Assembly: GCA_040879435.1 (NCBI GenBank)
Contig: JBBDKG010000010.1
Coordinates: 2,019 to 66,018, forward strand
Direction: 5' to 3'
Length of the DNA stretch: 64,000 bases
Source of the DNA: Minisyncoccota bacterium
Lineage (GTDB): Bacteria > Patescibacteriota > Minisyncoccia > Phycocordibacterales > UBA918
How positions within the stretch are numbered: position 1 is the first letter of the stretch; each line of letters opens with the position of its first letter. Under the pieces are notes generated by a model. It did no database searches. It was not told the DNA's origin and saw only the letters and a list, made by a program, of their open reading frames with translations. Positions 1 to 49,271 of this stretch are shown here, piece after piece. A program made the position numbers and the translations under genes.

Positions 1-3000
1 ACCAAAACGGTTCTGTAGCAGGCGCGCTTAAGGCTGGTGACACCGAGAACAACAAAGGACAGTACTCTGCATTTAACAAAGAAAACCTTCGGAACACGAA
101 CGAAAGCTATGCCCAAAACCCTGGTGCATACAATGAGATGGCTCGAAAGTTTCTTGATGGCGAAATAGCAAAGGAACGAGGGACCGCTGTTGCAGTTCCG
201 CTTCCGCGCGCAACACACTACTATAATCCAGGAGAAGCCACCCCGAACTGGGGACCAAAACTGCAGGAGGTGCGGGAATTTGGTCCTGCTGGCCAAAGTC
301 ACCGTGGAGGTACACTTGCCGGTGAATACGAGACCCGTGGACAGCCGGAAGGACTTGAGAAGCTTGCCCTTGACCGATTCAATAGCGTTATGGGAGCTGA
401 GAGTCGTGGAATGGATCCAGTGCGAGCGGATGAGGAGGGTCAGATGGAGGTTGCGAAACGACTTGCCTTTGGAAACAATGGTGAATTTGCAGGGACTCCG
501 GGTGGTTCAGGTTCTCCGGAACCTTCGCAGCCAGTTACCCAAGTAGACGCAGAGGAGTTTTCAGAAACATTCGATGGTCGTGAATCCCAGCCACAAGAGC
601 TCGGCGGCATACCAACTGACCGCTCACTACCTGAAACACCACCAAACGCCTTCACTTTCCCAGACAATGTTTTTGACTTCGATGAGATACCCGGGTACAT
701 CGGCACTGAAGGCCCACGTGCCCCTGCGGGCTCGTTCCGCCTCGGAGCTACCGGACTCGCAGAAGCAGAGCAGCGAGCAAACCTTACTGAGTCATTCAAA
801 CACGGCGGAAGAATCCGTGACGAAGACCCCGACACCACTGTGAACGGCCTTACTCTCGGACAAGTGGCACAGATAGAGGTAGCGAACTACAATGAGAAGC
901 ACGGTACCCGCCACAACGTCGACGTATACTCTGGAAAAGGACCACATGGATCCGCCCGACATCGTGACCATGATGATACAGCGCGCGGCACCCCTGGGTG
1001 TGGCTGTGCGATCGACTTTTCGATCACTGACGAGAACGGGCGTGCACTGCCTGTTTCTGGCAACGAGGACGTCTATGCGGAAGTCGCACGTGGGCTAGTC
1101 GAGAAGACTGGTGGATCGATCGGACTTGGAGCTGAGTATATGGATCACGGCATTCATTTTGATATGGCAAATATTGCCCATCCGAATAAGGGCGCGTTCG
1201 CCGGGAAAGAATGGGGGAGCCTCGGTAAAGCCTTGGCTAAGGAGTTTGCTGAATTACGTGCAGGCGCGCCAAAAGCGACTGTGGAGTATGACGAAGAGAC
1301 TGGGCGCACCACTATCACACTTCCAACTGAGGACGTGCCGTTCGATCAAGAATCAACACCAGGTATCGCGAGCGGGATCTTTGGTATCGACCCGAATGAA
1401 TCGCGGTTCGTCGATCCGAATGAACTAGACGAATACGTCGAAGAGCAACAGCGTACTGCCGAACCTGCGGAAGGCGAACCGGAAAGCGATACTGAACCAG
1501 GCGACAGCATCAGAGAACGAGCCACAGAACAGGTGCGTGACTTTATCCGGTTTATCTCCGACCTGCTCGGCGGTCGTGGTGATAGATCCCCTTCTCCAAC
1601 CGATGGCGAGAACGCAACCACCACTGATCCGGTAAGTTACGATACTGGTGACCATTGGTTGAGTGCACTGACCCTTACCCCGACCGCACATGCACAAGTC
1701 AGCACACCACCGGAAGAGTCACAGTCGCTTAAAGAGAGCATTGCGGCGTTGTGGCACTGGATCTTTGGATCAGAAGAAGCACCGCGTCGCACCTTCTCCG
1801 ATCTGCCGGGAGCACACCTCCACGCATACTCCCGTCCGTATGTTCCTGTACTGGTACAGATCGATGAAGTGGCCGGTGCAGTGAAGTTCTCCCGCGGTGA
1901 AATAAAGAACGCAACAGATGTTCGTGAACTGCCGGAAGCCCTTGAGATCGCCTTTGAGTCCGGAGACGATTCCTTCTCATTGATACTGAACGAATTCGGG
2001 GATGTTGTGTACTCGAACGGCATGTTCGCGCCAGAGACCGACACTGAAGGAAATCCACTACCAACGGACATGGACTATGTGTACTTTGTAGAATACTGGC
2101 GGGACGGTGAGTTGGTACGTTCGGAGACAAACACCAAAACACTTCCAGGCAACTTCTTCACGCGCATGATCGGTGATCTCTTTAGCAAGGATGACCCATT
2201 CACACTGACTGACGTCGACTCGGTCACCTTCGTGCATGGAGATCCTGACCCAGACGCTCTTACCGATGACTATCGTGAGTATACGATTCGGCTCATGGAC
2301 GGATCTGTTCGCCACGTTTCACTACCGGTCAACTCTTCCCTCTCCTTCTACCTGAAAGAGCTGGACGATATTGGGTACAACGGGGACATTGTGGCTCTAC
2401 TCAATATCGCGACCGAAACTGAAAGAAAAGAAGGGGTTGATGCAAAAGGTTTCCTTGCACGCTCTCTCAGTAAGCTGAACGGCGACTCCGTACAGTCTGA
2501 TGCTCTTCCAGATCAACAGCAAGAGATCTTTAGTGATCTCACCGAAGCACTTAGCAACAACCAAGGTGGATTCATTCCGTCGGGTGTCACAGAGGTGGTG
2601 GTGTACTTCAATGTACCGGTACTATGTGAAGATGAAACAACCACAGGATATGTGTACGAGGTAACACTGTCCGGTTACCAACCAAATGGAGCACTGACCG
2701 AGATTCCGGCAGCTGCTGCACGTTGTGGCAACGGTGGCCCACGTACATACGCCACCGAGATCGCAGCGCACATCACCTCAGCGACAGGACTTGCAGTATC
2801 GGACGAGCAGATATTGGAGTTAATTGAATTCCAATACAACACACCGGAATATGTCTACCTCAACGATGAAGGAGATGCCAGCGCATCGGCACCGGTGATT
2901 CCGAACACCACGAACGAGGTTGTATTTGAGGCGAAGGCCAGCCGGAACGGCGCCACTGTTGTGAACTGGAGCACTGGTGCGATAACGCTAGCAGTGGGCG

Positions 3001-3233
3001 ACCAACTCCATCTCAGGTGGAACGCGGAGAACTACCAGCGCTGCCTGCCGTTCATTGCGGACAATGGTGCATACAGCCTTTCACGGAATGACCTGCGTCT
3101 TGTTTCTGGTAACACAGAAGCTGAAGGGTACGACCTCACTGAGCGTACCGGTACGTACCGTGTGGAGTGTGATGGGCAGTTAAATGGTGAGAATGGAGTG
3201 GATGAACGGAGGATCGAGGTGCGGATTCAGTAG
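1..3233 (+). CDS. large acidic secreted/surface protein, 5'-truncated at window edge; possible LAS/M15-like Zn-peptidase motif
   Basis: Reading frame 3 is open from nt 3 to the stop at 3231-3233 with no in-frame stop upstream of the ATG at 138, so the true N-terminus lies outside the window (more than 1076 aa). The sequence is very D/E-rich. Around aa 250-330 the segment HGSARHRDHDD...GCGCAIDFS...DHGIHFDMA resembles the H/D...HxH zinc-ligand arrangement of LAS/peptidase-M15-type cell-wall hydrolases (inference by eye). Confidence 0.55.
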   Translation, partial: QNGSVAGALKAGDTENNKGQYSAFNKENLRNTNESYAQNPGAYNEMARKFLDGEIAKERGTAVAVPLPRATHYYNPGEATPNWGPKLQEVREFGPAGQSHRGGTLAGEYETRGQPEGLEKLALDRFNSVMGAESRGMDPVRADEEGQMEVAKRLAFGNNGEFAGTPGGSGSPEPSQPVTQVDAEEFSETFDGRESQPQELGGIPTDRSLPETPPNAFTFPDNVFDFDEIPGYIGTEGPRAPAGSFRLGATGLAEAEQRANLTESFKHGGRIRDEDPDTTVNGLTLGQVAQIEVANYNEKHGTRHNVDVYSGKGPHGSARHRDHDDTARGTPGCGCAIDFSITDENGRALPVSGNEDVYAEVARGLVEKTGGSIGLGAEYMDHGIHFDMANIAHPNKGAFAGKEWGSLGKALAKEFAELRAGAPKATVEYDEETGRTTITLPTEDVPFDQESTPGIASGIFGIDPNESRFVDPNELDEYVEEQQRTAEPAEGEPESDTEPGDSIRERATEQVRDFIRFISDLLGGRGDRSPSPTDGENATTTDPVSYDTGDHWLSALTLTPTAHAQVSTPPEESQSLKESIAALWHWIFGSEEAPRRTFSDLPGAHLHAYSRPYVPVLVQIDEVAGAVKFSRGEIKNATDVRELPEALEIAFESGDDSFSLILNEFGDVVYSNGMFAPETDTEGNPLPTDMDYVYFVEYWRDGELVRSETNTKTLPGNFFTRMIGDLFSKDDPFTLTDVDSVTFVHGDPDPDALTDDYREYTIRLMDGSVRHVSLPVNSSLSFYLKELDDIGYNGDIVALLNIATETERKEGVDAKGFLARSLSKLNGDSVQSDALPDQQQEIFSDLTEALSNNQGGFIPSGVTEVVVYFNVPVLCEDETTTGYVYEVTLSGYQPNGALTEIPAAAARCGNGGPRTYATEIAAHITSATGLAVSDEQILELIEFQYNTPEYVYLNDEGDASASAPVIPNTTNEVVFEAKASRNGATVVNWSTGAITLAVGDQLHLRWNAENYQRCLPFIADNGAYSLSRNDLRLVSGNTEAEGYDLTERTGTYRVECDGQLNGENGVDERRIEVRIQ

Positions 3234-9921: not shown

Positions 9922-9928
9922 TAATCGG

Positions 9929-10001
9929 AGTCCTGGGCGGGAGTCGAACCCGCGAATGTCGGTTTTGCAAACCGAAGCGTTAACCACTTCGCCACCAGGA
10001 C
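9929..10001 (-). tRNA. tRNA-Cys (GCA)
   Basis: Reverse complement folds as a cloverleaf: acceptor GTCCTGG/CCAGGAC, anticodon stem-loop TCGGT-TTGCAAA-ACCGA with anticodon GCA, T-loop GGTTCGACTCC. Confidence 0.85.
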
Positions 10002-10072
10002 AATTGCATCAAATACTCTACCACTCATACACAGCAACACCAAACAGCCGTTTCGTGATATTATCAGCCGAA

Positions 10073-10159
10073 TGCCGAGGTGGTGGAGTTGGTAGACACG
10101 AGGGACTTAAACTCCCTTGCCACTTATACTGGCGCGCGGGTTCGAATCCCGCCCTCGGC
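10073..10159 (+). tRNA. tRNA-Leu (TAA), class II with long variable arm
   Basis: Acceptor GCCGAGG/CCTCGGC. Anticodon arm AGGGA-CTTAAAC-TCCCT with anticodon TAA. Long variable arm GCCACTTATACTGGC. T-loop GGTTCGAATCC. Confidence 0.85.
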
Positions 10160-10213
10160 ACAAGCAGTCTTGTTTTCACATCCGCAATACGGTACACTCG
10201 TGTTTGCACATTT

Positions 10214-10286
10214 CCGCCCATAGCTCAGCTGGTAGAGCAGACGCCTCTTAAGCGTAAGGTCCTTGGTTCGAGCCCAAGTGGGCGGA
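10214..10286 (+). tRNA. tRNA-Lys (CTT)
   Basis: Acceptor CCGCCCA/TGGGCGG. D-arm GCTC-AGCTGGTAGA-GAGC. Anticodon loop CTCTTAA with anticodon CTT. T-arm CTTGG-TTCGAGC-CCAAG. Confidence 0.8.
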
Positions 10287-10377
10287 CATTAATTCAAACT
10301 GCACATTGATCGATATGGTATCAGTGTCCACACTCCAAATGATTGGTAATCGCTATGTGTCTTAGAATGAAGACAAT

Positions 10378-11025
10378 ATGGCGAACAGGAAGAAGTACGT
10401 GGACACTAACTGGAGCGGTCCACTTGCCTACGTAATTGGACTTATTGCTGCTGACGGAAACCTGTCTCCTGACGGCAGACACATCTCCTTTACTTCCAAA
10501 GATAGTGCCCTAGCAAAAACCTTCAAAAGAATTTTGTGTTTGGATAACACGATCGGGATAAAGGCACGAGGAGGCAGTACACATAAAAAGTATCATGTTG
10601 TGCAGTTCGGCTCGGTAGATTTTTACACCTTTCTCCTTTCTATAGGACTTACACCAGCAAAATCAAAGACGATCGGCGAGCTTTTGATTCCTTCGCAGTA
10701 CTTTCCGGACTTTTTGCGTGGGTGTATTGACGGAGATGGAAGCATAAGTACTTTCTCACATCCTGAGAGCAAGTACTCTCAGCTTCGAGTGCGACTTGCT
10801 TCAGCAAGTCCAAAATTCCTCAAGTGGGTACACGTAGAAATCTCCCGTTGTATGAGGACGAATGGTGGATGGGTATACACGGACAGCAAGAAGTCAGTTG
10901 CAACTCTTACCTATGCTACAGCTGATTCTGTTAAAATACTCACAGCGATTTACCGATCTTCTACATGTGACTGTTTGCATAGAAAGAAGAAAACTGCTAC
11001 AAAGTATCTCGCTGCTTTGAAATGA
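10378..11025 (+). CDS. LAGLIDADG-family homing endonuclease (double-motif, single-chain type), free-standing between tRNA genes
   Basis: 215 aa with two LAGLIDADG motifs (GLIAADGNL near the N-terminus and GCIDGDGSIS mid-protein). GC content is about 45%, clearly below the flanking DNA. The stop at 11023-11025 is 3 nt before tRNA-Leu. Confidence 0.85.
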   Translation: MANRKKYVDTNWSGPLAYVIGLIAADGNLSPDGRHISFTSKDSALAKTFKRILCLDNTIGIKARGGSTHKKYHVVQFGSVDFYTFLLSIGLTPAKSKTIGELLIPSQYFPDFLRGCIDGDGSISTFSHPESKYSQLRVRLASASPKFLKWVHVEISRCMRTNGGWVYTDSKKSVATLTYATADSVKILTAIYRSSTCDCLHRKKKTATKYLAALK

Positions 11026-11028
11026 AAT

Positions 11029-11111
11029 GCCGGGGTGGCGAAATTGGTCAGACGCGCTAGTCTTAGGAACTAGTGGGGCAACCCGTGGAGGTTCGAGTCC
11101 TCTCCCCGGCA
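11029..11111 (+). tRNA. tRNA-Leu (TAG), class II
   Basis: Acceptor GCCGGGG/CCCCGGC. Anticodon arm CTAGT-CTTAGGA-ACTAG with anticodon TAG. Long variable arm. T-loop GGTTCGAGTCC. Confidence 0.85.
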
Positions 11112-11116
11112 CATAC

Positions 11117-12348: not shown

Positions 12349-13098
12349 ATGCAACTTGAAAAAAGGAACGAGACGATGAAACTCAGTGATCTTTGGAACT
12401 ACGGAGCATCAGCTGGTCAGCTGTTCAGCAATGTTCACTCAGCAGGTGCTCTGTTCAACGCCGTACTGGGCAAGGATGTTCCTGAGGATGCATCAGCCAC
12501 CGTCAAAGGTGTGAAGGGTATCATCGGCAGGGGCGACGAACGTGCCTTCGAGATACTGCTCACTCAAGCCACAGGACAGCGGCCGAACGCTCGCGAAATC
12601 GTTGCGGGATACCGCGCCTGGGCGCGCCTCAAGGGGGACAGCATCGAGGTCAGGGTTGCGAATGCCTGGTACGAGACGGCATTTCGGAACCACTTCTTGA
12701 ATATGGGTGCGGGCAAGGGCTCAAAGATCGGTACCGAGACCGAGACCGAGACCGAGACCGACCCCGTTACCAAGAAGAAGACCGTAAAGGTCAAGCAACT
12801 CGACATCTACGGCCCGGCTTCGAACTCGAGCCTCACCGAGCTGGTGGTCTTTATCGACATGATCGAGGCCGCCAACACCCTTGAAGAAGGGTACAAAAAC
12901 GTGGTGCGGCTTACGGGCATTCCTACCCCGCCGGCGAATGCGGTGAAATTTTACCGCAAACTGAAACGAACATTCCAGGGAGAGTGGGAAACCCTCGAGG
13001 AGCTCGATGCCTGGCTCAAGCAACAGATCGACGAGCGCAAAGCCAACAGAGGCACGCTCCGTACGACCTACGACAAAATCTTCTCTTCTGAAAGGTAA
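12349..13098 (+). CDS. hypothetical protein with internal (TE)n repeat
   Basis: 249-aa ORF with coding-like composition. GGAAC upstream of the start. Contains a TETETETD low-complexity stretch. No recognisable domain. Confidence 0.5.
   Translation: MQLEKRNETMKLSDLWNYGASAGQLFSNVHSAGALFNAVLGKDVPEDASATVKGVKGIIGRGDERAFEILLTQATGQRPNAREIVAGYRAWARLKGDSIEVRVANAWYETAFRNHFLNMGAGKGSKIGTETETETETDPVTKKKTVKVKQLDIYGPASNSSLTELVVFIDMIEAANTLEEGYKNVVRLTGIPTPPANAVKFYRKLKRTFQGEWETLEELDAWLKQQIDERKANRGTLRTTYDKIFSSER
12733..12762 (+). repeat. hexanucleotide tandem repeat (ACCGAG)x4 + ACCGAC encoding (TE)n
   Basis: Direct reading of accgagaccgagaccgagaccgagaccgac. Confidence 0.9.
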
Positions 13099-13103
13099 CA
13101 GCG

Positions 13104-13982
13104 ATGATACGGAGTGCAACACGTTACGCACGCATGAGGGCAGAAGACCTGCACTTTGCGTTCACCGTCACACTGCTGGCGAGCTTCTTTGCGGTCTTCT
13201 GCATGTGGCTCGTCAATATCGCCGGCGCACCGGGACTAAATTTGTTCTTTCTCTTCGTCGGCGCCATCCTCTTCGTCATACTCTTCACCCGAGTGGAATT
13301 CTTCTTCGCTGCCCTTGGACTCGGAGCTGTGGTGCAGGGTTTGAGAAACGAGGATATCACCCAAGGGTCAATCCTGGGTGTGAGCACGCTCTTCAAGGTG
13401 ATGTTCGGCGCCGTGTTCTATTTCACGTTCGCCGCACTCATCCTCTCTGTCGTACCGTTCTCCGGAGCTCCAGGAGCTTTCTGGGGCATCGCCGCTGTTC
13501 TCGTCGTCGTATCGTCATTTGCGGCGTATGTCGGTGGCAGTGATGGAAAATGGCTCAAGGCGATAGTGACCGTCGCGGCAGGCGCCATCTTCCTTACCTT
13601 CGTGTGGCAAATATTCGCCCCTGACGGCGTCAAACGCTATATGGGCAGCACGGTCAATGCTATCGACCGTGATGCTGACCGCCGTGCGACGGAGATCGAC
13701 CGAGGGTACACGGTCTTTGCAGCATATGCAATCACCGTACCCGCAGGAGGGTACTCCGAAGAACTTTCCAACCAAACAGGACGGTGTCTCATTCGCCGGC
13801 CAGCAGGTTCTAGGACGGGAAACCTTCCTCCTGCATGGGCACTGTACAAAGGCGCCCACGACTTCGTGCCGTACATCCCCGGCAAACCGTGGACAAAGCT
13901 CGTCTACGATGGACATGGCTTGCCAAAGTCATTCACCATCGAGGTGCAAGAGCGCCTCGCAGGGCAATGCGGCTCTTGGTAA
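13104..13982 (+). CDS. polytopic membrane protein, unknown function
   Basis: 292 aa with at least 5 predicted hydrophobic helices. Starts 6 nt after the previous stop and is co-oriented with it, so the two are likely co-transcribed. Confidence 0.55.
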   Translation: MIRSATRYARMRAEDLHFAFTVTLLASFFAVFCMWLVNIAGAPGLNLFFLFVGAILFVILFTRVEFFFAALGLGAVVQGLRNEDITQGSILGVSTLFKVMFGAVFYFTFAALILSVVPFSGAPGAFWGIAAVLVVVSSFAAYVGGSDGKWLKAIVTVAAGAIFLTFVWQIFAPDGVKRYMGSTVNAIDRDADRRATEIDRGYTVFAAYAITVPAGGYSEELSNQTGRCLIRRPAGSRTGNLPPAWALYKGAHDFVPYIPGKPWTKLVYDGHGLPKSFTIEVQERLAGQCGSW

Positions 13983-14047
13983 CAAGACCTCGCATACGCC
14001 AACTCACAGCCGTTCGGGTTTTCCCGGACGGCTTTTCTTTTTTCGTA

Positions 14048-14353
14048 CTAATACGGCACGTCAATCCCAAACGTATTCGCCGCGACCCAGAGGATGCTGA
14101 ACGCAGAAAGCATCACGAGCATACCGATCACACCGAACATAAGATGCTTGCTTCCTTCCGTCCGCTTCTGAGGGTTGTTCGCACCCAGCACGTACTGGAA
14201 CGCTCCATAAAGGAACACGAGAAGCGCGACCGCCATCATGAACGTGATGAGCGGAAAAAGAATGACCTCGTTGAGTCGGTCCATAAACGACTGCGCGATC
14301 GCTGCTGCTTCTTGGGCGTGTACAACCATAATGATGAGAGACTGACCCCTCAC
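14048..14353 (-). CDS. small two-helix membrane protein, pilin-like (TrbC/VirB2-type T4SS pilin-like), paralog 1 of 4
   Basis: 101 aa. Two hydrophobic helices separated by the loop LVFLYGAFQYVLGANNPQKRTEGSKHLMFGVIG, a pattern shared with the three upstream ORFs. Confidence 0.6.
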   Translation of the reverse strand: MRGQSLIIMVVHAQEAAAIAQSFMDRLNEVILFPLITFMMAVALLVFLYGAFQYVLGANNPQKRTEGSKHLMFGVIGMLVMLSAFSILWVAANTFGIDVPY

Positions 14354-14393
14354 CGCAACGAGTGCGCTACGGTGAATCCGTCAACCACCGATG

Positions 14394-14780
14394 CTAGTTG
14401 TTTGTAGTTGGTGCGTTCGGGATGCTCTGGATATCCTGATCGTCACTGAATCCAAGACCATTGGCGATAAGGTTCACGATACCGAAAATCGAGACCATGA
14501 GTACAAATCCAATGACCGAATACAGCATGAGTTGCGTACCCTCTTTCCGGTTCTCCGGGTCACCGCCACCCAAAATGAAGTACTTGAAGACACCGTAGAG
14601 AAATACGAGCAGTGCTATCGCGAAGACGAGCGGGATGAGGATGTTATTGATAAAGTTGGTAATGTTGCTGAAGAATTCATTGACACCACCAAATTGTGCG
14701 AGTGCGATCGCAGGCACGAGCATGAACGTTGCTGCAAACGCCGTGATCTGAACGCTCATTTTTTTCATAGGTTCCTTCAT
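14394..14780 (-). CDS. small two-helix membrane protein, pilin-like, paralog 2 of 4
   Basis: 128 aa. Signal-like N-terminus. Shares LLVFLYGVFKYFILGGGDPENRKEGTQLMLYSVIGFVLMV with paralog 1. Confidence 0.6.
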   Translation of the reverse strand: MKEPMKKMSVQITAFAATFMLVPAIALAQFGGVNEFFSNITNFINNILIPLVFAIALLVFLYGVFKYFILGGGDPENRKEGTQLMLYSVIGFVLMVSIFGIVNLIANGLGFSDDQDIQSIPNAPTTNN

Positions 14781-14883
14781 TTACGTACTAAATATCGCTG
14801 CTAAACCGAGCTATACAGTAATAGTAGCGTGAAAACGGCCAAAAATCGAATGGTGCTTGTCGAATGTGTGAATAGCGGGACAC

Positions 14884-15141
14884 TTAGACCCCGAACAACG
14901 AGTACCGCAATATCGAGAGAATGCCCCAGATACCGGACATAATAACGAGTGCAATGATTCCAATGAGTGCCGTCTGCTTCCCCTCCGCGATCTTGGTCGG
15001 CTCACCCGGATTGAATATCCACGCATCAACGATCTTCCAGATGATCACCACGAGTGTGAGTGAGAATATGATCGGGATCACGAGCGAGATGAGATAGATA
15101 AGATCACCGACCAGTTCTGAGAAATTCTGAGGTCCGTACAT
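14884..15141 (-). CDS. small two-helix membrane protein, pilin-like, paralog 3 of 4
   Basis: 85 aa. Same helix / NPGEPTKIAEGKQTALIGIIALVIM loop / helix architecture as paralogs 1-2. Confidence 0.55.
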   Translation of the reverse strand: MYGPQNFSELVGDLIYLISLVIPIIFSLTLVVIIWKIVDAWIFNPGEPTKIAEGKQTALIGIIALVIMSGIWGILSILRYSLFGV

Positions 15142-15152
15142 ATATTTCTTGG

Positions 15153-15575
15153 TTACCCGAGCGCATTAATGGTGCCGCTGATAACGTAGAGAAGTAGCTG
15201 AGCTCCCAGAATGAGTACGCCACCTACAACCGCGAAGAGGAGCGCCCTGTTCGCTGTCGATATCTCTTCCGGCTTCCCCTGCGCCATCACATATTTAAAA
15301 CCGGCGTAGATGATGAAGAACACGATGATCGGCACCGCAAAGACCATGATGACGTCGAGGATGTCCTGAAAGAAGCCAAGGAGTGTCTGGTCACCGAGGG
15401 GGTTCTGAAGTTGAACTCCTTCTCCCCCAGTATATCTACCTCCACCGGTACCATCTTCTCCTTGCACATCACCTGTACCATCTTCTCCTTGTTGTGCAAG
15501 GAGTACGCCAGGAAGAGAGGCGAGGAAAAGGATCGAAGCAAGATAGAGATGACTGCAAAATTTTTTCATACTCAA
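15153..15575 (-). CDS. small membrane protein, pilin-like, paralog 4 of 4, with Gly/Glu/Asp-rich repeat after the signal peptide
   Basis: 140 aa. Signal peptide, then a QGEDGTGDVQGEDGTGGG repeat, then FFIIYAGFKYVMAQGKPEEISTANRALLFAVVGGVLILG matching the family loop. Its ATGA start-stop overlaps the upstream solute-binding gene. Confidence 0.6.
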   Translation of the reverse strand: MSMKKFCSHLYLASILFLASLPGVLLAQQGEDGTGDVQGEDGTGGGRYTGGEGVQLQNPLGDQTLLGFFQDILDVIMVFAVPIIVFFIIYAGFKYVMAQGKPEEISTANRALLFAVVGGVLILGAQLLLYVISGTINALG

Positions 15576-16879
15576 AATGCTAATTCTAATCGACGGACAG
15601 CATCTGATATCGCACCGGCAACCTTTTTGCGACTCGATACAACATCCTCGACCATTTGCTTGAACACACCGCCACTTGCCTCAGGGTCCGGATCGAGCCA
15701 GCCGCGCGCGATGAGTGCACTCTGATACACGATCTGCTGGTGTGCGTCACCACTCCCCGCAGCGATACCATCACGTGTTGCCGGTGCAAGTCCTAGCTCT
15801 ACCGCGATCGGTGTAGCAACCTCACTTTGTACGAGTGTCTGGACCGCTGCGTAGCTTCCCTGTGGGTTCCTCGACGCGCGAGTGATTGCTATGCCGTAAA
15901 AGGTACCGTAGACACGCTTCACCGTCGCCGACGCACCTTGCGGGACCACAGCGGCATCGAAGTTAAGGTTTGGATTCTGATCAGCGATACTGGTGCGCTC
16001 GCTGCCGTATCCGAAGTAGATGGCAAGCTTCCCACCCACGAACGCGAGTCTGTCATTGTCCATCGACCCGTTCCAGGTATAGAGCGAACTGTTCGCGTTA
16101 CTAAAGTCAGTATAGAACTGGAGTGCGGCATTCATCGGCGGTCGTCCGCCATCGGTCGCCGGCTTATCAAGCACTACGCGATACCCGCGCTCCTCCTCGG
16201 TCACCAGACGGCTTCCCGACTGCATTGCAAGTGTGAGGAGCATCGGCTTGGCGTTGGTGATGTTCGCATACTCACCGAATGCAACGGCGGCCTGTACGAT
16301 GTTGCGGAACCCGTCACGCTCGGCGATCTGCGGCACCACCGACCCGACCAATGTTTCCCATGAAGCAGGAGGTTGTGAGAGGCCATTCGTGCTGAAGAGA
16401 TCGCGATTCCAATACATGACGACCGGGTCGACCGCAAACGGGAAGGCGTAGATGCCGTCCAGTCGTGCAAAGATCTCGCCACCGTCGATGAACCGGTCGC
16501 GGAAAGTACGGTCAGGATACGAATCATACGGCACCGGCAGCAGTTTCGGTCGGAACGACACGAACTCCTCGTGCGGGAAGATCACCACGTCAGGTCCCCG
16601 ATTCTCCGCGAGGGCATTGGTGAACTCCTCGGCAAACGTTCTGCTATCCTTCTCCACATACTCAACGACACGAAAGCCCTCAACATCATTTGCAATCCGC
16701 TGAAGCGCAGACTCCATGGAACCGGCACTGAATGTCCCCCACACAATCACACGCTCCCCGTATACATTCTCCTCGCTGCCCATAAATCCCTCAAAACTCG
16801 CAAGCAGGATCACACTCACAACGCCCATAATGGCGAAGAGGGCGAGGAGTGCTATCTGAAATGGTCGAATGTTCTGCAT
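15572..16879 (-). CDS. extracellular solute-binding protein (ABC-type, family 1-like), N-terminally membrane-anchored
   Basis: 435 aa. N-terminal TM anchor, then a periplasmic-binding-protein-like sequence (VIVWGTF...YAFPFAVDPVVMYWNRDLF...). Confidence 0.65.
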   Translation of the reverse strand: MQNIRPFQIALLALFAIMGVVSVILLASFEGFMGSEENVYGERVIVWGTFSAGSMESALQRIANDVEGFRVVEYVEKDSRTFAEEFTNALAENRGPDVVIFPHEEFVSFRPKLLPVPYDSYPDRTFRDRFIDGGEIFARLDGIYAFPFAVDPVVMYWNRDLFSTNGLSQPPASWETLVGSVVPQIAERDGFRNIVQAAVAFGEYANITNAKPMLLTLAMQSGSRLVTEEERGYRVVLDKPATDGGRPPMNAALQFYTDFSNANSSLYTWNGSMDNDRLAFVGGKLAIYFGYGSERTSIADQNPNLNFDAAVVPQGASATVKRVYGTFYGIAITRASRNPQGSYAAVQTLVQSEVATPIAVELGLAPATRDGIAAGSGDAHQQIVYQSALIARGWLDPDPEASGGVFKQMVEDVVSSRKKVAGAISDAVRRLELAF

Positions 16880-16890
16880 ATAACAATAGG

Positions 16891-17442
16891 CTACGGTTTG
16901 CGGAAGGCCAGTCCGTAGTGATGGTCACCTGCATCGAACGAGCGTTCGAACAATAGACCATGCGACTCAGCCAGTGATTTGACGGCATCGGCCGTGATCA
17001 CCTGCTCTGGATGAGGACCGAGACCGCCGAATGACTCAGACCAATCGATAACAAAAAGCTTTCCGCCACGCCGGAGTGTACGGACCATCTCAACGAATGC
17101 GGCGTCCTTTTGCTCCATTTGAAAGAGTGAGTTCACCACCACCCCCGCATCGAGCGCGCCATCCCGCAGCTTGGTACCGGCCGGCGCCTCGATATCACAC
17201 CACAACACCTGCACGTTGCCGATGTTCTTGCTCCGCAACAACTGGCCGATCGATTCAGTGAGCGTACGCTGGATCTCGCACGCATACACTTTTCCGTCAG
17301 TACCCACCAGACGGGAAAGGGACGGAAGGAAAAAACCGGTGCCGGCACCGAAATCAGCGACCACTTCACCCTTCCGGAGATGGAAGTGTGTCACCACGAC
17401 CTCAGGAATGACGAATCTGCCTTGTGTCGCACTTGTACTCAT
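16891..17442 (-). CDS. class I SAM-dependent methyltransferase
   Basis: 183 aa. Motif I VADFGAGTGFF and a Rossmann-fold MTase layout. Confidence 0.8.
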   Translation of the reverse strand: MSTSATQGRFVIPEVVVTHFHLRKGEVVADFGAGTGFFLPSLSRLVGTDGKVYACEIQRTLTESIGQLLRSKNIGNVQVLWCDIEAPAGTKLRDGALDAGVVVNSLFQMEQKDAAFVEMVRTLRRGGKLFVIDWSESFGGLGPHPEQVITADAVKSLAESHGLLFERSFDAGDHHYGLAFRKP

Positions 17443-17507: not shown

Positions 17508-17840
17508 TCAGTCATTGCGAGACGGCACGTTCGGTGTAGGGAGAATACTACGCTGCTGGTTGACCTCAGCACCGAATTCAGCATCGCCAAAATATTCCTC
17601 ATTCGTCTCGTCCCAGCCGCGGGTCATCAGCATGCCCAGGAAGGCGAGTGCGAGGTAGAGGAAAATAGCGATGCCAAAGAAGAATACAGCCCGCACTATG
17701 TTCGGCTGCCCGAGATCCGGTCGATCGAGCATGAACGAATTAACGATCCCGAAGAGAAAAAAGATCGCACCGATAGCGAACATGCCCGGGACAAGATAAT
17801 CCTGGAGAAAGAGAACTACCGAAAGTATGCCACCTGTCAT
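17508..17840 (-). CDS. small two-helix membrane protein (possibly related to the pilin-like family)
   Basis: 110 aa. Two hydrophobic helices separated by a DRPDLGQPNIVRA loop, with an acidic C-terminal tail. Confidence 0.45.
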   Translation of the reverse strand: MTGGILSVVLFLQDYLVPGMFAIGAIFFLFGIVNSFMLDRPDLGQPNIVRAVFFFGIAIFLYLALAFLGMLMTRGWDETNEEYFGDAEFGAEVNQQRSILPTPNVPSRND

Positions 17841-23869: not shown

Positions 23870-23968
23870 ACGTGATTAGTGTACGGTGAAATAGTGAAAG
23901 TGCAACGCACGATACCGCATCGTTTGTTTTTGCACTTCACTTCACTTATACTATATGTATTACGTACT

Positions 23969-24586
23969 ATGTTTTCCCCTCCTACAACACAATCGAACAA
24001 AAACCAAACACCCTCACCTCGTCAGGAGCACCCACTCATTGAGATCGTACGCTTCATCATCATCGCACTGGTGATCGTGATCCCGATCCGTGTGTTCATC
24101 GCACAACCATTTATCGTATCGGGTGCTTCCATGGAGAATACCTTTCATAACAATGAGTATCTCATCGTGGACAGGGTTACGTACCGGTTCAACGAGCCGG
24201 AACGCGGCGATGTGGTGATATTCCGGTATCCGCGTGACCCGGCGAAGTTCTTTATCAAACGATTGATCGGTCTACCAGGAGACACGGTCACCATTAACGG
24301 GAGTACCATCACCATCACCAACAACGAACATCCCGACGGCATCACGCTTGATGAACCATACCTCTACACACCGACCGACTCATATCTCACCCAAACACTT
24401 GATGAAGGTGAGTACTTCGTGATGGGTGACAACCGGAACGCGAGCTCCGATTCACGCGTCTGGGGAATCCTCACTGACGACAAGATCATCGGTCGCGCGC
24501 TTCTGCGTCTCTTCCCGCTCTCGGACGCAGCGGTCATGCCCGGGGCGTACGACCTTGAAACCGGTTTATCAGCACGTTCACAGTGA
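23969..24586 (+). CDS. lepB: signal peptidase I (S26)
   Basis: TM anchor, catalytic-Ser box SGASMENTF, catalytic-Lys box KRLIGLPGD, and a C-terminal GDNRNASSDSR box. The ATG at 23969 is preferred over the ORF-track start at 23879, which would lie 10 nt from the pth start. Confidence 0.85.
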   Translation: MFSPPTTQSNKNQTPSPRQEHPLIEIVRFIIIALVIVIPIRVFIAQPFIVSGASMENTFHNNEYLIVDRVTYRFNEPERGDVVIFRYPRDPAKFFIKRLIGLPGDTVTINGSTITITNNEHPDGITLDEPYLYTPTDSYLTQTLDEGEYFVMGDNRNASSDSRVWGILTDDKIIGRALLRLFPLSDAAVMPGAYDLETGLSARSQ

Positions 24587-27231: not shown

Positions 27232-28446
27232 TTAGGTACCGGCCTCAGCCTCCGCTACGAATCGGCAGAACAGCTCGGGTCGCTGTCCTTTTGCACAAGC
27301 GGTCTGCAGCTCCGCCTCGCTCACAAAACGTGAAATAGACGAATACAACCCTTCGTAGCAGATCGTTTGCTCCGTCTCGGTCATTCCACTCTCTTCACAA
27401 AATGCAAATACATGTTCGAAATCACCCGATGATGTGCCGTGCTCTACAAGTCCACCCGCGAGAGAGACGATGCATGCATGGAGCAGTTCCTCGGGAACAG
27501 TCCGACACGATGCAAGCAACTGCTGCTGGTCTTCCTTCGGACGATGCTGCACCATACCGCTGACCGCAACGGTCATGATCGTACTCTGCATGTCTTTCCG
27601 TTTTGCAGTCTGTGCGATCGCGGCGGCCTTTGCCGGATCATGGTTACTCAGACCGTCCACCTTCTGCGCCATCTCGTAGTAGCAGTCCGGCTGCCGCTCA
27701 TATGCTTCGCTGTCGCAGATGCGGAATGGTGATTCACGATCATAGGTAAAGCCATACTCCTCGTCTGACATCCAATCCACGATCACGTTGTATATACCCT
27801 GCCGGCACTCGCTGATCTCGAACGGACTCGCGTCCGGTAGCGACTCACACTGCGCAAGTGGTACATCGACAAAATCTCGGAGCGTCCACTCGCGCGGGTC
27901 AACGAGCGTATCAGCACGAGCTAGTAAAAAGCCATGTCCTGAACCGTGATAGCAGGTTTGCCGCATTCCCGGTGCGGTCGCTTTCAGGCGCTCGTCCATG
28001 TATGCACAGGTCAGAGAAACAAATGCCGGGTCAGGATTGTCCTGTATCAAATGTTCAAAGAAACCGTGATAGAAACCATACCCGCACGCAGTTGCATTCG
28101 GCGGAAATTCGGTGCGGTCCAGGTCACGATGTGTGAGGTAATCAAAGTAGTACGCCATGTCCCCAACACGATGCGCGTGCCGATGGCATCCGGTGTTCGA
28201 GAACGTATCGTATTCACGGTAGATACGCTCGAACACATCAAAGGCGGCCTGCGTTCCGTCAGATACGAAGACGCCGCGGATCACCTCCTGCCAGCAATCG
28301 ATCTTAGCAACCTCGTTCGTATATACCTTCTCACACCTCTCGATAGCTGCAGTTTCGCTATCATGCACCAGAAGAGCCCCGAGGATACCGATCACGAGAA
28401 ACGCTATCAGGATCACCCACCGCACAGTAATGCTATTCAACAACAT
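27232..28446 (-). CDS. Cys/His-rich secreted protein, paralog A of a 4-member family (repeated C-x-H-G-x-G-H-G motifs)
   Basis: Probable start MLLNSITVRWVILIAF (signal anchor). The ORF-track extension upstream is Arg-rich junk. Motifs CHRHAHRVGD, CGYGFYHGFFEH and CYHGSGHGF. About 14 Cys. Confidence 0.6.
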   Translation of the reverse strand: MLLNSITVRWVILIAFLVIGILGALLVHDSETAAIERCEKVYTNEVAKIDCWQEVIRGVFVSDGTQAAFDVFERIYREYDTFSNTGCHRHAHRVGDMAYYFDYLTHRDLDRTEFPPNATACGYGFYHGFFEHLIQDNPDPAFVSLTCAYMDERLKATAPGMRQTCYHGSGHGFLLARADTLVDPREWTLRDFVDVPLAQCESLPDASPFEISECRQGIYNVIVDWMSDEEYGFTYDRESPFRICDSEAYERQPDCYYEMAQKVDGLSNHDPAKAAAIAQTAKRKDMQSTIMTVAVSGMVQHRPKEDQQQLLASCRTVPEELLHACIVSLAGGLVEHGTSSGDFEHVFAFCEESGMTETEQTICYEGLYSSISRFVSEAELQTACAKGQRPELFCRFVAEAEAGT

Positions 28447-29452
28447 GTATCGTACCGGTGAAATAAGAGCGGATATGGTCATGCATGTTCCAGGTTCCCA
28501 CGCGATCGAATGTAAAACTCCATGTTTCTTCCGGCGGAATCGGCTCAAGAGAATCGAACTCCGGATAGATCCCGTGTGTGGGATGCAGGTTCGACGCCGG
28601 CCAGAACGGCCGACCTGTGGTCGTGCTGAATTCGACCGTCGCACCGCGCGCGACGGTAAGCTTTGCAGGCTCGAACCCTTCGTCGGTCAGCACGACTGAT
28701 ACTGTACCGTCAGTAGCTATTGCCGCCTGCTCAGGCGCTGACGCATTCAGTTGGTTGTCAGACAGGAGCATGAGGGTCACATAGAAAGCGGCGGCGGCAC
28801 ACGCAAGTCCAACCGCAACGCTTACAATAAGGTTCGTTCGCGATGGGCGTTTTGGAGTCGTTTCAGATTCTTCTGTGACCGGTGCAGTGTTGCCGGACGT
28901 ATTGCGTCGTGTCCTGATGAACAGAAAAATGCCAACAAGCGAAAGCAATGCCCCCGCAACTACTCCAACACCAAGTGCAAGAAATGAAAACGTTCCTGCG
29001 CCTGAAACATCACCTTGTTGCACGGACAGTGTGAATTCGATCTCGACGAGAGCCTCCCCCTCGTTACTGAATCGTGCAAAGCCGGTATACGTCCCTGCTT
29101 CAGGGAAGGCGATGGTCATCCCGGTAGCACCGAACTCAGCCTTTGCAAGTCCTCCCGCATAGAGTAGCCGGCCATCGTCTTCAAGCCGGAACCAGATGTC
29201 TGTGAACGGTACCTGTGTATCAGTCTCAGCATCATAGAGGTAGAAGTCAAATCGTATCTGCTCACCTGAACGAGGTTCTTCGGGCGAATAGCCGATATCG
29301 ACAAGATAGCCGTCGATGGTCTGTTCGATCGATGCTCCTGACGAGTGTGCAGCTACTCGTTCAACAAACGTGGTGCTGAGAACTGCAAGCGTCACACTTG
29401 TGACGATGCCAACGGTAATAAGAAAAGCTGTACTTATTTGTGTGCGTATCAT
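28433..29452 (-). CDS. membrane-anchored two-domain protein: YtkA/CopC-like beta-sandwich N-domain + cupredoxin-like C-domain
   Basis: 339 aa. N-terminal anchor and a central TM helix. The C-terminal segment FEPAKLTVARGATVEFSTTTGRP...HPTHGIYPEF...GTWNMHDHIRSYFTGTIHV resembles cupredoxin/EfeO-type domains (His ligands present, no Cys). Confidence 0.55.
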   Translation of the reverse strand: MIRTQISTAFLITVGIVTSVTLAVLSTTFVERVAAHSSGASIEQTIDGYLVDIGYSPEEPRSGEQIRFDFYLYDAETDTQVPFTDIWFRLEDDGRLLYAGGLAKAEFGATGMTIAFPEAGTYTGFARFSNEGEALVEIEFTLSVQQGDVSGAGTFSFLALGVGVVAGALLSLVGIFLFIRTRRNTSGNTAPVTEESETTPKRPSRTNLIVSVAVGLACAAAAFYVTLMLLSDNQLNASAPEQAAIATDGTVSVVLTDEGFEPAKLTVARGATVEFSTTTGRPFWPASNLHPTHGIYPEFDSLEPIPPEETWSFTFDRVGTWNMHDHIRSYFTGTIHVVE

Positions 29453-29509
29453 GCGGGTACTCGTGAATTAGAGACTTCCAAATACAGTCATTCTGTATGG
29501 TACCACAGG

Positions 29510-30727: not shown

Positions 30728-30776
30728 GAGAAACGTGTGTGAGAGTATCGTACCATGTGGCCATTCGGCCGGTAGT

Positions 30777-33022: not shown

Positions 33023-33142
33023 GCATCAGGAGTCCTGTCGCACGCACATATAAACCCGGATGTCTTGAGATATCACCTCCCTCATGCTACTGTTGCCGCG
33101 GACATTCTGTCCTTTCAACACTGTCTGAGAAGGAAAAGGACG

Positions 33143-43584: not shown

Positions 43585-43587
43585 ACG

Positions 43588-44995: not shown

Positions 44996-44999
44996 ATCC

Positions 45000-48830: not shown

Positions 48831-48984
48831 CAGTTCATTTTACCAAGAAGACCTCCTTTAAACCTCCAAAAAACGGCTATTTTTGTGCATAAGTTTGCAA
48901 TTTCTATGGTCTGATTTGTCCCCTGTTTTGCTGTCTCGCTCCCGTTGCATTCCCTGTGTGCGTGTGGTATGCTCGACCCCACTT

Positions 48985-49227: not shown

Positions 49228-49271
49228 AGAAAGTGCCCCACAAGGGGCGCTTTTCTTGATACACTACCCCC

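What the first reader, a model, noticed from the sequence alone, without database searches (positions are those of the whole stretch)
14048..15575. Four tandem, divergent pilin-like two-helix membrane proteins translationally coupled to a solute-binding protein
Four consecutive minus-strand ORFs of 85-140 aa share the architecture hydrophobic helix, loop (consensus roughly L-x-F-L-Y-G-x-F-K-Y-x-x-G-x-x-x-P-E-x-x-x-E-G-x-x-x-L), hydrophobic helix. That is the layout of TrbC/VirB2-type conjugative pilins and of the T4SS-pilin-like small proteins that are abundant in reduced genomes. The most upstream copy overlaps an ABC-type solute-binding gene in an ATGA start-stop arrangement. A fifth similar ORF is at 17508-17840. 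Multiple divergent copies suggest either antigenic or functional diversification of a surface filament subunit or a family of small membrane effectors. No VirB4/VirB6/VirD4 genes are in the window; the adjacent 13104-13982 polytopic protein is unassigned.
Basis: partly seen in the sequence, partly recalled or inferred. Interest (0 to 1): 0.55.

Follow-up and report, generated by a model that had tools for sequence, protein, structure and literature searches.

The report
Conserved four-pilin cassette behind binding protein
Four neighbouring small membrane-protein genes in this ultra-small (Patescibacteria/CPR) bacterium belong to the known family of VirB2-like "type IV secretion pilins"; such arrays are already published, but this one is a fixed four-gene set always placed directly behind a sugar-type binding-protein gene.

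Summary
The four minus-strand ORFs are real and homologous. All hit Pfam PF18895 (T4SS_pilin): two above the curated cut-off, one 0.4 bits below, one lower. NCBI already names the best copy "pilin [Candidatus Paceibacterota bacterium]". Tandem arrays of divergent VirB2-like pilins in Patescibacteria are published (PMC12102498, PMC10633639), so the kind is known.

Corrections to the finding:
- The junction with the binding-protein gene is TTGA, or more likely an ATG 2 nt after the stop. It is not ATGA.
- Two copies carry a Sec leader ending A-x-A-Q and two are leaderless.
- The fifth ORF is a weak, divergent family member that Pfam misses.

New here:
- The operon methyltransferase, membrane-anchored MalE-like binding protein, P1-P2-P3-P4, next to gyrA, recurs in all 68 testable loci from GTDB species genomes (binding protein 36-54% identical).
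- The paralogue order is fixed, and orthologues are as conserved as the binding protein. This argues for four non-redundant subunits, not antigenic variation.
- No VirB4, VirB6 or VirD4 was found in the window, and none in four relatives' annotated 8-10 kb flanks.

The pilus function is inferred, not shown. Modest interest.

The parts
15153..15569 (-). P1: pilin-like gene next to the binding-protein gene (138 aa from the ATG; the longest ORF starts at TTG 15575). Layout: Sec-type leader (...GVLLAQ), Gly-rich linker, LQNPL motif, two-helix hairpin.
   Evidence: PF18895 28.8 bits (cut-off 26.6) and TrbC PF04956 20.9 bits. Three hydrophobic segments. Rank-1 ORFs in 40 of 40 four-gene arrays match this paralogue best.
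14884..15141 (-). P2: leaderless 85-aa pilin-like hairpin.
   Evidence: PF18895 22.9 bits, E 9e-5, below the cut-off. Two hydrophobic helices. Rank 2 in 38 of 40 arrays. Orthologues are 42-73% identical.
14394..14768 (-). P3: 124-aa pilin. Layout: leader ending ALA-Q, hairpin, conserved disordered C-terminal tail (GLGFSDDQDIQSIPNAPTTNN). It is identical to the NCBI protein 'MAG: pilin [Candidatus Paceibacterota bacterium]'.
   Evidence: PF18895 42.5 bits. P0001 is 100% identical and named pilin. AlphaFold2 model has mean pLDDT 76.7 with helices at 3-25, 29-65 and 71-102. Rank 3 in 40 of 40 arrays.
14048..14329 (-). P4: leaderless 93-aa pilin-like hairpin starting MVVHAQEA... (the longest ORF begins at GTG 14353).
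   Evidence: PF18895 26.2 bits, 0.4 below the cut-off. 40% identical to P3, E 3e-18. Rank 4 in 38 of 40 arrays. Gene call of 93 aa on the identical contig L001.
15572..16879 (-). Membrane-anchored family-1 (MalE-like, sugar-type) solute-binding protein, 435 aa. It lies directly upstream of P1 in the same operon. No permease or ATPase gene is adjacent.
   Evidence: SBP_bac_1 58.4 bits. Its profile hits solved sugar-binding proteins, the best being 4r9f at 3e-10. One N-terminal TM segment. A pilin array follows it in 68 of 68 testable loci.
16891..17442 (-). Class I SAM-dependent methyltransferase, 11 nt upstream of the binding-protein gene and conserved at this position.
   Evidence: Methyltransf_11/25/31 with E about 1e-10. 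Found about 1.85 kb upstream of the binding-protein stop in nearly all 80 loci.
17508..17840 (-). ORF5: divergent fifth two-helix family member between gyrA and the methyltransferase gene.
   Evidence: No Pfam hit. Array-pilin HMM gives 13.9 bits, E 1.2e-3, the only extra hit among 571 window ORFs. Orthologues in 12 loci score E 1e-13 to 1e-5.
14008..14033 (.). GC-rich hairpin (11 bp stem) between the convergent ends of P4 and the plus-strand gene 13104-13982. It is a likely terminator closing the operon.
   Evidence: Terminator-like site on the plus strand followed by a T-run. No strong terminator-like site lies inside the binding-protein-to-P4 stretch: the two weak minus-strand matches there (9-bp stem at 14354-14333, 7-bp stem at 15339-15321) fall within coding sequence and lack a T-run. 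The count of such sites in the region equals the shuffle expectation (4 found, 4.0 expected), so this is weak evidence.

Best explanation
**What it is.** These are four (plus one degenerate fifth) VirB2-like pilin-family membrane proteins (Pfam PF18895) in the chromosome of a Paceibacterota (Parcubacteria/CPR) bacterium. They are encoded as one operon: methyltransferase, membrane-anchored MalE-like binding protein, then P1, P2, P3, P4, next to gyrA.

**What is shown.**
- Family membership.
- The helical-hairpin architecture.
- The pattern leader / leaderless / leader / leaderless.
- A fixed gene order in which each position is its own orthologue group across dozens of species.
- Tight linkage to the binding-protein gene.

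**What is inferred.**
- P1 and P3 are inserted by Sec and cut by signal peptidase I after A-x-A, leaving an N-terminal Gln as in VirB2.
- P2 and P4 insert without a leader.
- All four sit in the cytoplasmic membrane with termini outside and the charged loop inside.
- From this membrane pool, the VirB4-type ATPase of the Patescibacteria monoderm-type T4SS (encoded elsewhere, typically near dnaA in this class) assembles them into a surface filament or channel.
- That structure contains four non-redundant subunit types (major and minor or accessory pilins), rather than interchangeable antigenic variants.
- The co-transcribed surface binding protein probably works at the same envelope site, in ligand capture, sensing or host-contact recognition. 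Its role is the least certain step.
For: **Family and homologues**
- Pfam PF18895 hits on all four copies (42.5, 28.8, 26.2, 22.9 bits) plus weak TrbC/VirB2 hits.
- NF045849 pilin-like conjugal transfer protein scores 29-36 bits.
- All 120 listed homologues carry PF18895, and NCBI names the identical protein 'pilin'.
- A profile search of 1.84 billion cluster representatives finds 20,195 family members at E <= 1e-3.

**Structure**
- Hydropathy shows two TM helices, plus a leader in P1 and P3.
- The AlphaFold2 hairpin has pLDDT 80-95.
- hhalign against eight real VirB2/TrbC proteins is colinear. It aligns the A-x-A-Q leader end and both helices (E 0.0025).

**Conserved context**
- Signal peptidase I is present in the window at 23879-24586.
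- The same gene order occurs in relatives L002-L008.
- Pilin ORFs follow the binding-protein gene in 68 of 68 testable loci from GTDB species genomes: 4 genes in 41 loci, 3-6 in most of the rest.
- In 75 of 76 loci with at least 500 nt downstream, a pilin ORF starts within 700 nt of the binding-protein stop. In 57 of the 75 the junction ranges from a 4-nt overlap to a 30-nt gap.
- Array rank matches paralogue identity in 40/40, 38/40, 40/40 and 38/40 arrays.
- The 3/2/3/2 pattern of hydrophobic segments is conserved.
- Orthologue identity is 42-75%, at least as high as for the binding protein at 50-62%.

**Literature**
- VirB2-like pilin arrays occur in Patescibacteria. VirB4 is present in 2,417 of 3,035 assemblies. 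The pilin gene is near virB4 in only 1,135 of 1,948 assemblies (PMC12102498).
- The pilin array is essential in S. epibionticum (PMC10633639, PMC12857230).
Against: - No VirB4, VirB6, VirD4, VirB3 or VirB8 was found in the 64-kb window or in the annotated 8-10 kb flanks of four relatives.
- A rough screen of 80 loci found no VirB4-like ORF of 450 aa or more with a Walker A motif.
- Whether this genome has a T4SS at all could not be checked.
- Direct similarity to experimentally proven pilins is weak. TrbC is below the Pfam cut-off. hhalign probability is 11.9%. There is no pilin among PDB sequence hits or Foldseek hits.
- No pilus has been seen in any Paceibacteria.
- Family members exist as single polypeptides with 3-8 fused hairpins. 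That is awkward for a classical extruded pilus subunit.
- gyrA and the methyltransferase gene are as syntenic as the binding-protein gene. Conserved adjacency alone therefore does not prove a functional link between the binding protein and the pilins.
Confidence: 0.6

Rival explanations
1. The cassette encodes a self-contained membrane complex. The TM-anchored binding protein docks onto a hetero-oligomer of the four hairpin proteins (8 TM helices). Together they act as an unconventional uptake or sensing device for a host-derived sugar-like ligand. The complex works independently of any T4SS ATPase. On this reading the family's 'pilin' name reflects ancestry, not function.
For: - The binding protein and P1-P4 are invariably linked and tightly spaced.
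- No ABC permease or ATPase lies next to the binding-protein gene in the window or in relatives.
- No T4SS genes are nearby.
- The stoichiometric-looking set of four distinct paralogues is fixed.
- Family members fused into polytopic proteins of 3-8 hairpins look like membrane-resident assemblies.
Against: - In other Patescibacteria classes the same family lies inside T4SS loci and is essential together with them (PMC10633639, PMC12102498).
- No precedent is known for a binding-protein-dependent transporter built from two-helix hairpins, and no energising component is present.
- The binding protein's TM anchor is not more conserved than the rest of the protein.
- Synteny with gyrA and the methyltransferase gene is equally strong, so linkage may simply reflect a frozen gene order.
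Confidence: 0.15
2. The copies are interchangeable variants of one filament subunit, kept for antigenic variation or to match different host strains, as proposed for Bartonella and Anaplasma virB2 paralogues.
For: - Paralogues within the array are only 18-40% identical.
- The published study of Patescibacteria arrays suggests host-range versatility (PMC12102498).
- Copy number varies from 3 to 6 among relatives.
Against: - Each array position is a separate orthologue group kept in the same order in 38-40 of 40 arrays.
- The leader / leaderless pattern is position-specific and conserved.
- Orthologues are as conserved as, or more conserved than, the neighbouring binding protein and methyltransferase.
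- This pattern indicates purifying selection on four distinct roles, not rapid diversification.
Confidence: 0.08
3. The genes are remnants or cargo of an integrated conjugative element.
For: Best NCBIfam similarity is to a Mycoplasma ICE pilin-like protein, NF045849.
Against: - The locus sits in a conserved core neighbourhood (gyrA ... rhodanese ... IF-2 ... ClpB) in relatives, confirmed with Pfam gene calls in four of them and by gyrA/methyltransferase/rhodanese matches across the 80 loci.
- Among the ORFs scanned with Pfam (39 in the window, plus the gene calls of four relatives' loci), no relaxase, coupling protein, VirB4 or integrase was found.
- GC content is unremarkable: 0.51 against 0.52-0.56 for most of the window.
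Confidence: 0.02

Closest known systems
VirB2-like pilin arrays of Patescibacteria (Pfam PF18895). Examples: the essential array within the T4SS locus SEML1_0006-0019 (six pilins per PMC12857230) of Southlakia epibionticum ML1, and the arrays surveyed by Quinonero-Coronel et al. 2025.
   Same: Same Pfam family. Tandem genes with low identity between copies (about 25% in the survey, 18-40% here). Monoderm CPR host. Chromosomal location with no relaxase.
   Different: This array is not within at least 14 kb upstream or 44 kb downstream of any recognisable T4SS gene. It is placed behind a binding-protein gene next to gyrA. It is a fixed four-paralogue cassette with alternating leader and leaderless forms. 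The published survey does not mention a binding-protein linkage and reports arrays mainly in Microgenomatia and Saccharimonadia.
VirB2/TrbC pilins of Gram-negative MPF-T systems (Agrobacterium T-pilin, RP4 TrbC; Pfam PF04956)
   Same: Long leader ending A-x-A-Q, followed by two hydrophobic helices joined by a short loop, about 70-80 mature residues. The alignment is colinear, with weak Pfam hits.
   Different: - Scores fall below the family cut-off, and hhalign probability is only 12%.
- No adjacent virB1, virB3 or virB4 (compare, where real virB2 always sits between virB1 and virB3).
- Two copies lack a leader.
- The host is a monoderm.
- Cyclisation and pilus formation are unknown.
Tandem virB2 paralogues of Bartonella and Anaplasma phagocytophilum
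   Same: Several divergent pilin genes side by side.
   Different: Those are interpreted as antigenic or host-interaction variants inside a virB operon (as cited in PMC12102498). Here the copies are ancient, ordered orthologue groups under conservation.
Mbov_0395 / MMCAP2_0565 pilin-like conjugal transfer protein of Mycoplasma ICEs (NCBIfam NF045849)
   Same: An 80-residue two-helix protein of a monoderm T4SS. It is the best NCBIfam match, at 29-36 bits.
   Different: The score is below the model's cut-off of 40. That protein is ICE-borne and single-copy, whereas this locus is chromosomal and arrayed.
Solute-binding proteins recruited to T4SS biology (PrgZ of pCF10, ChvE of Agrobacterium). This comparison rests on my own knowledge, not on a test here.
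   Same: A binding protein of the ABC type is genetically or functionally tied to a type IV secretion system as a ligand sensor.
   Different: - PrgZ and ChvE act in regulation or pheromone import and use known permeases or kinases.
- This binding protein is family 1 (MalE-like), TM-anchored, co-transcribed with pilins, and has no known partner.

Membership tests
Pfam PF18895 T4SS_pilin | Score at or above the curated gathering cut-off (26.6 bits) | tested here: met
   P3 scores 42.5 and P1 28.8, both above. P4 scores 26.2 and P2 22.9, both below, with E 8e-6 and 9e-5. P2 and P4 join the family through orthologues and paralogue similarity. ORF5 has no Pfam hit.
Pfam PF18895 T4SS_pilin | Small protein with two TM helices joined by a short polar loop, with an optional N-terminal leader | tested here: met
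   Hydropathy. AlphaFold2 helices at 29-65 and 71-102 with pLDDT 80-95.
Pfam PF18895 T4SS_pilin | Homologues are themselves family members in Patescibacteria | tested here: met
   All 120 listed homologues carry PF18895, and the sources name them pilin / Candidatus Paceibacterota.
TrbC/VirB2 pilins (Pfam PF04956) | Score at or above the gathering cut-off (27.9 bits) | tested here: not met
   P1 scores 20.9 bits (E 4e-4) and P2... rather P3 scores 16.2 bits (E 0.012). P2 and P4 give no hit.
TrbC/VirB2 pilins (Pfam PF04956) | Profile-profile homology to authentic VirB2/TrbC sequences | tested here: inconclusive
   hhalign of A3 against eight plasmid VirB2/TrbC proteins gives probability 11.9% and E 0.0025. 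The alignment is colinear and includes the A-x-A-Q leader end.
TrbC/VirB2 pilins (Pfam PF04956) | Encoded within a T4SS gene cluster (virB1-virB2-virB3-virB4...) | tested here: not met
   No T4SS Pfam family in 39 window ORFs. None in the neighbours of four relatives. Real virB2 genes sit between virB1 and virB3.
TrbC/VirB2 pilins (Pfam PF04956) | Fold match to solved pilin structures | tested here: inconclusive
TrbC/VirB2 pilins (Pfam PF04956) | Leader cleavage, cyclisation and polymerisation into an extracellular pilus driven by VirB4 | not testable with these tools
   Only the A-x-A-Q motif and a signal peptidase I gene are seen.
NCBIfam NF045849 Mbov_0395 pilin-like conjugal transfer protein | Score at or above the cut-off (40 bits) | tested here: not met
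   36.2, 32.3 and 29.1 bits, with no hit for P2.
Patescibacterial VirB2 arrays (Quinonero-Coronel et al. 2025) | Two or more pilin genes in tandem or separated by one non-pilin gene | tested here: met
   Four adjacent genes with gaps of 11, 115 and 64 nt.
Patescibacterial VirB2 arrays (Quinonero-Coronel et al. 2025) | VirB4 present in the same genome | not testable with these tools
In the literature 80% of assemblies have VirB4 (PMC12102498).
ABC-transporter solute-binding protein, family 1 (SBP_bac_1) | Pfam score at or above the cut-off and similarity to solved sugar-binding proteins | tested here: met
   58.4 bits against a cut-off of 26. PDB profile hits include 4r9f at 3e-10, 4qrz, 1eu8 and MalE.
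ABC-transporter solute-binding protein, family 1 (SBP_bac_1) | Cognate permease and ATPase genes in the same operon | tested here: not met
   None in the window operon or in the 8-10 kb flanks of relatives.

The most novel reading that the evidence does not exclude
In Paceibacteria the VirB2-like hairpin proteins have been built into a dedicated, binding-protein-headed envelope device. A surface MalE-like receptor and four fixed hairpin subunits form one complex that captures a host-derived ligand and passes or signals it across the membrane. This would link the enigmatic, essential Patescibacteria 'T4SS pilins' to nutrient acquisition rather than to a classical conjugative pilus. Fused proteins of 3-8 hairpins in relatives would be the single-chain version of the same membrane assembly.
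Probability: 0.13. Interest if true: 0.75.

Novelty: new member of a known kind. Interest (0 to 1): 0.33.

Why it matters
The function of the Patescibacteria type IV secretion system and its pilin arrays is an open question. They are essential in the one species tested, yet no relaxase, substrate or pilus is known. This locus does not change the picture of what the genes are.

It does show three things for the largest CPR class:
- The pilins form a fixed four-subunit set.
- They lie far from any recognisable secretion gene.
- They are welded to an orphan surface binding protein in every relative examined.

This gives concrete hypotheses to test: hetero-oligomeric subunits, and a possible link to ligand capture. 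It also gives a simple genomic marker (the binding-protein plus P1-P4 cassette next to gyrA) for comparative and expression studies.

Tried and rejected
- **Exact look-up of the 128-aa longest ORF** found nothing, because the real start is Met5. The 124-aa form is on record.
- **PDB sequence profile search** with the pilin alignment gave only chance membrane-protein hits, the best being FliL at E 0.04.
- **Binding-protein TM anchor.** I tested whether it is unusually conserved, as a hint of intramembrane contact with the hairpins. Across 79 sequences it is average (0.39-0.57 against a typical 0.5), so the idea was dropped.
- **Supplement of PMC12102498.** I searched for the assemblies in my locus set to learn their VirB4 status and found no matches.
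- **VirB4 near the cassette in 80 loci.** I screened ORFs of 450 aa or more that were unmatched to window proteins. Only two cluster representatives had a Walker A motif. One is a surface protein with Gly-rich and fn3 domains. The other looks like ATP synthase beta by eye.
- **DnaA-box clusters near the GC-skew minimum.** There are 10 matches against 10.8 expected, with no cluster.
- **Neighbours 12349-13098 and 13104-13982 as VirB6/VirB8-like parts.** I rejected this. They have no Pfam hit, and the first gene's counterparts in three of the six relatives tested are SPFH/Band 7 proteins.
- **Spurious ORFs.** The plus-strand ORF 14391-14804 and the minus-strand ORF 14811-15029 overlap the pilin genes in other frames. 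I treat them as spurious.
Full report
**1. Observation**

ORF listing and the sequence itself confirm four consecutive minus-strand ORFs at 14048-14353, 14394-14780, 14884-15141 and 15153-15575. They lie directly downstream of a 435-aa ORF at 15572-16879.

Gene calls on an identical public contig (L001), together with orthologues, place the real starts as follows:
- 14329 (P4, 93 aa)
- 14768 (P3, 124 aa, with an AAGGAA Shine-Dalgarno-like motif 4 nt upstream)
- 15141 (P2, 85 aa)
- 15569 (P1, 138 aa)

The junction with the upstream gene reads GCA TTT TGA GT ATG AAA AAA. The claimed ATGA overlap is therefore absent. Either a TTG overlaps the stop (TTGA), or more likely the ATG 2 nt after the stop is used, giving a typical MKK... 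leader.

Hydropathy shows two strong hydrophobic helices in each protein. P1 and P3 have an additional N-terminal signal-peptide-like segment ending LLAQ / ALAQ, while P2 and P4 have none.

The copies are 18-40% identical. Five of the six pairs are significant, with P3-P4 at E 3e-18. The similarity is therefore not chance.

**2. Family**

- All four hit Pfam PF18895 'Type IV secretion system pilin': 42.5, 28.8, 26.2 and 22.9 bits against a cut-off of 26.6.
- P1 and P3 also give weak TrbC/VirB2 hits of 20.9 and 16.2 bits against a cut-off of 27.9.
- NCBIfam's closest model is the Mycoplasma ICE pilin-like protein NF045849, at 29-36 bits against a cut-off of 40.
- A search of 5.8 billion proteins with P3 returned 275 hits. 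All 120 listed carry PF18895. The identical protein is named 'MAG: pilin [Candidatus Paceibacterota bacterium]' by NCBI.
- A profile search of 1.84 billion cluster representatives finds 20,195 members at E <= 1e-3 and 5,189 at E <= 1e-10. This is a very large family.
- An AlphaFold2 model of P3 (59-sequence alignment, mean pLDDT 76.7) shows a leader helix at 3-25, a hairpin of helices at 29-65 and 71-102 with pLDDT 80-95, and a disordered tail.

**3. Relation to proven pilins**

This link is weak. The tests were:
- A PDB sequence-profile search found no pilin.
- Foldseek against PDB gave nothing significant, which is expected for a bare hairpin.
- I retrieved eight authentic VirB2/TrbC genes from plasmids. 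Each lies between virB1 and virB3.
- hhalign against that alignment gave a colinear match covering the A-x-A-Q leader end and both helices, but at only 11.9% probability, E 0.0025.

Membership in PF18895 is therefore established. Membership in TrbC/VirB2 proper is not.

**4. Literature**

- Tandem arrays of divergent VirB2-like pilins in Patescibacteria are published. PMC12102498 reports 441 arrays of 2-11 genes with mean identity 25%. VirB4 is present in 2,417 of 3,035 assemblies. The pilin gene is near virB4 in 1,135 of 1,948 assemblies. In Paceibacteria virB4 usually lies near dnaA.
- In Southlakia epibionticum the pilin genes lie within the T4SS locus and are essential (PMC10633639; PMC12857230).
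- The role of this T4SS is described as completely unknown (PMC11665869).
- PMC12102498 does not mention solute- or substrate-binding proteins. Of 'fused' and 'fusion' it has one occurrence each, both about VirB3-VirB4, not about pilins.

**5. Context and conservation (new here)**

The upstream gene is a family-1, MalE-like binding protein with one N-terminal TM anchor. No permease or ATPase gene is adjacent. A methyltransferase gene precedes it by 11 nt, and gyrA lies further upstream.

Relatives at 60-75% P3 identity show the same order: gyrA, (small ORF), methyltransferase, binding protein, 3-4 pilins, two convergent genes, rhodanese... IF-2, ClpB.

A scan of GTDB species genomes with a binding-protein alignment found at least 558 genomes with a relative. 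Eighty loci were kept, at 54-36% identity, from Kaiser-, Nomura-, Adler-, Yonath- and Campbellbacteria and unnamed Paceibacterota.

Using an HMM built from the array pilins:
- 68 of 68 loci with at least 1.5 kb downstream carry pilin ORFs right after the binding-protein gene on the same strand. There are 4 in 41 loci, 5 in 11, 3 in 10 and 6 in 4.
- 75 of 76 loci with at least 500 nt downstream have a pilin ORF starting within 700 nt of the binding-protein stop. The junction ranges from a 4-nt overlap to a 30-nt gap in 57 of the 75.
- In the 40 arrays with exactly four genes, rank 1, 2, 3 and 4 match window P1, P2, P3 and P4 best in 40, 38, 40 and 38 cases.
- The number of hydrophobic segments follows 3/2/3/2.
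- Orthologues are 42-75% identical. The same genomes show 50-62% for the binding protein and 55-65% for the methyltransferase.

The four genes are thus ancient, ordered, individually conserved paralogues. They are not a fast-diversifying variant set.

A GC-rich hairpin at 14008-14033 closes the convergent gene pair. No strong terminator-like site lies inside the binding-protein-to-P4 stretch: two weak coding-region matches without a T-run fall there. The scan found no more sites than the shuffles, so this is weak support.

**6. The fifth ORF**

ORF5 (17508-17840) has the two-helix layout but no Pfam hit. The seed HMM, built from array pilins only, scores it at 13.9 bits, E 1.2e-3. It is the only extra hit among 571 window ORFs. 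Its positional orthologues in 12 loci score E 1e-13 to 1e-5. It is a divergent, apparently dispensable family member.

**7. T4SS partners**

- Pfam scans of 39 window ORFs found no VirB4, VirB6, VirD4, VirB3, VirB8 or VirB1 family.
- Signal peptidase I is present at 23879-24586.
- A rough screen of the flanks (up to 10 kb) of the 80 loci found no VirB4-like large Walker-A ORF.
- Whether the genome has virB4 elsewhere could not be tested.

**8. Interpretation**

The best-supported reading is as follows. These are VirB2-like pilin-family subunits of the Patescibacteria monoderm-type T4SS, encoded away from virB4, as is common in that phylum. They form a fixed set of four non-redundant subunit types, two made with a cleavable leader and two leaderless. 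They are co-expressed with a surface binding protein.

Shown: family membership, architecture, operon-like organisation, conservation.

Inferred: cleavage after A-x-A, termini-out topology, assembly by VirB4 into a filament or channel, and any role for the binding protein.

The main rival is a self-contained complex of the binding protein and the hairpins, unrelated to secretion. The invariant linkage, the lack of nearby T4SS genes and the existence of fused 3-8-hairpin proteins favour it. The family's T4SS context elsewhere, and the equally strong synteny with gyrA and the methyltransferase gene, count against it.

Antigenic variation and a mobile-element origin are poorly supported.

**9. 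Verdict**

The kind is already known and annotated. The added value is the conserved binding-protein/P1-P4 cassette in Paceibacteria. Interest is modest.

Noticed in passing
Proteins P0129 (606 aa), P0149 (820 aa), P0121 (336 aa), P0203 (933 aa): Many family members are single polypeptides with one leader followed by 2-8 tandem pilin hairpins. P0129 matches the profile in 7 stretches and P0149 in 8. P0121 is named 'pilin' in a Paceibacterota MAG. Roughly a third of the top 150 hits have two or more matched stretches. This is hard to reconcile with a classical extruded pilus subunit and is not mentioned in PMC12102498.
   Followed up: partly
L069:11393-12721, L009:12395-13288, L088:2622-3314: Some array members carry long C-terminal extensions after the hairpin. 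One is a domain of about 300 aa on a rank-1 pilin, and another is an acidic tail of about 170 aa on a rank-4 pilin. These would be displayed outside the cell if the C-terminus faces out.
   Followed up: no
window 14394-14768 (P3 C-terminus): The disordered tail GLGFSDDQDIQ(S/N)IPN(A/V)PT.NN is almost invariant among P3 orthologues (S108, I116, P117, P120 and N123 at 90% or more). It may be a processing or recognition signal, reminiscent of the C-terminal maturation of TrbC.
   Followed up: no
window 9927-11112: A free-standing LAGLIDADG homing-endonuclease ORF (10378-11025, LAGLIDADG_3, 47 bits) sits inside a tRNA cluster of Cys, Leu(taa), Lys and Leu(tag). It is not within an rRNA or tRNA intron.
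   Followed up: partly
window 12349-13098 and 13104-13982 (+ strand): A convergent gene pair lies next to the array: a soluble 249-aa protein and a 292-aa protein with 5-6 TM segments plus a C-terminal domain. Neither has a Pfam hit here. The first gene's counterparts in three of the six relatives tested (L006, L007, L059) are SPFH/Band 7 proteins. The pair may therefore be a diverged SPFH plus membrane-partner module rather than T4SS parts.
   Followed up: partly
window about 43000-49300: Cumulative GC skew reaches its minimum near 44 kb. Gene orientation switches from mostly minus to plus near 49 kb, which is an origin-like pattern. However, no dnaA gene and no DnaA-box cluster were found (10 matches against 10.8 expected).
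   Followed up: partly
window 138-3233, 45000-48830, 37484-39295, 27232-34429: Several large ORFs (1031, 1276 and 603 aa) and a run of 335-470-aa ORFs have no Pfam family at E <= 1e-3. Many have N-terminal hydrophobic segments, so they may be CPR-specific envelope proteins.
   Followed up: no
window 23879-24586: Signal peptidase I (Peptidase_S26, 160 bits) is encoded about 9 kb from the array. It is the obvious candidate for cleaving the A-x-A-Q leaders of P1 and P3.
   Followed up: no
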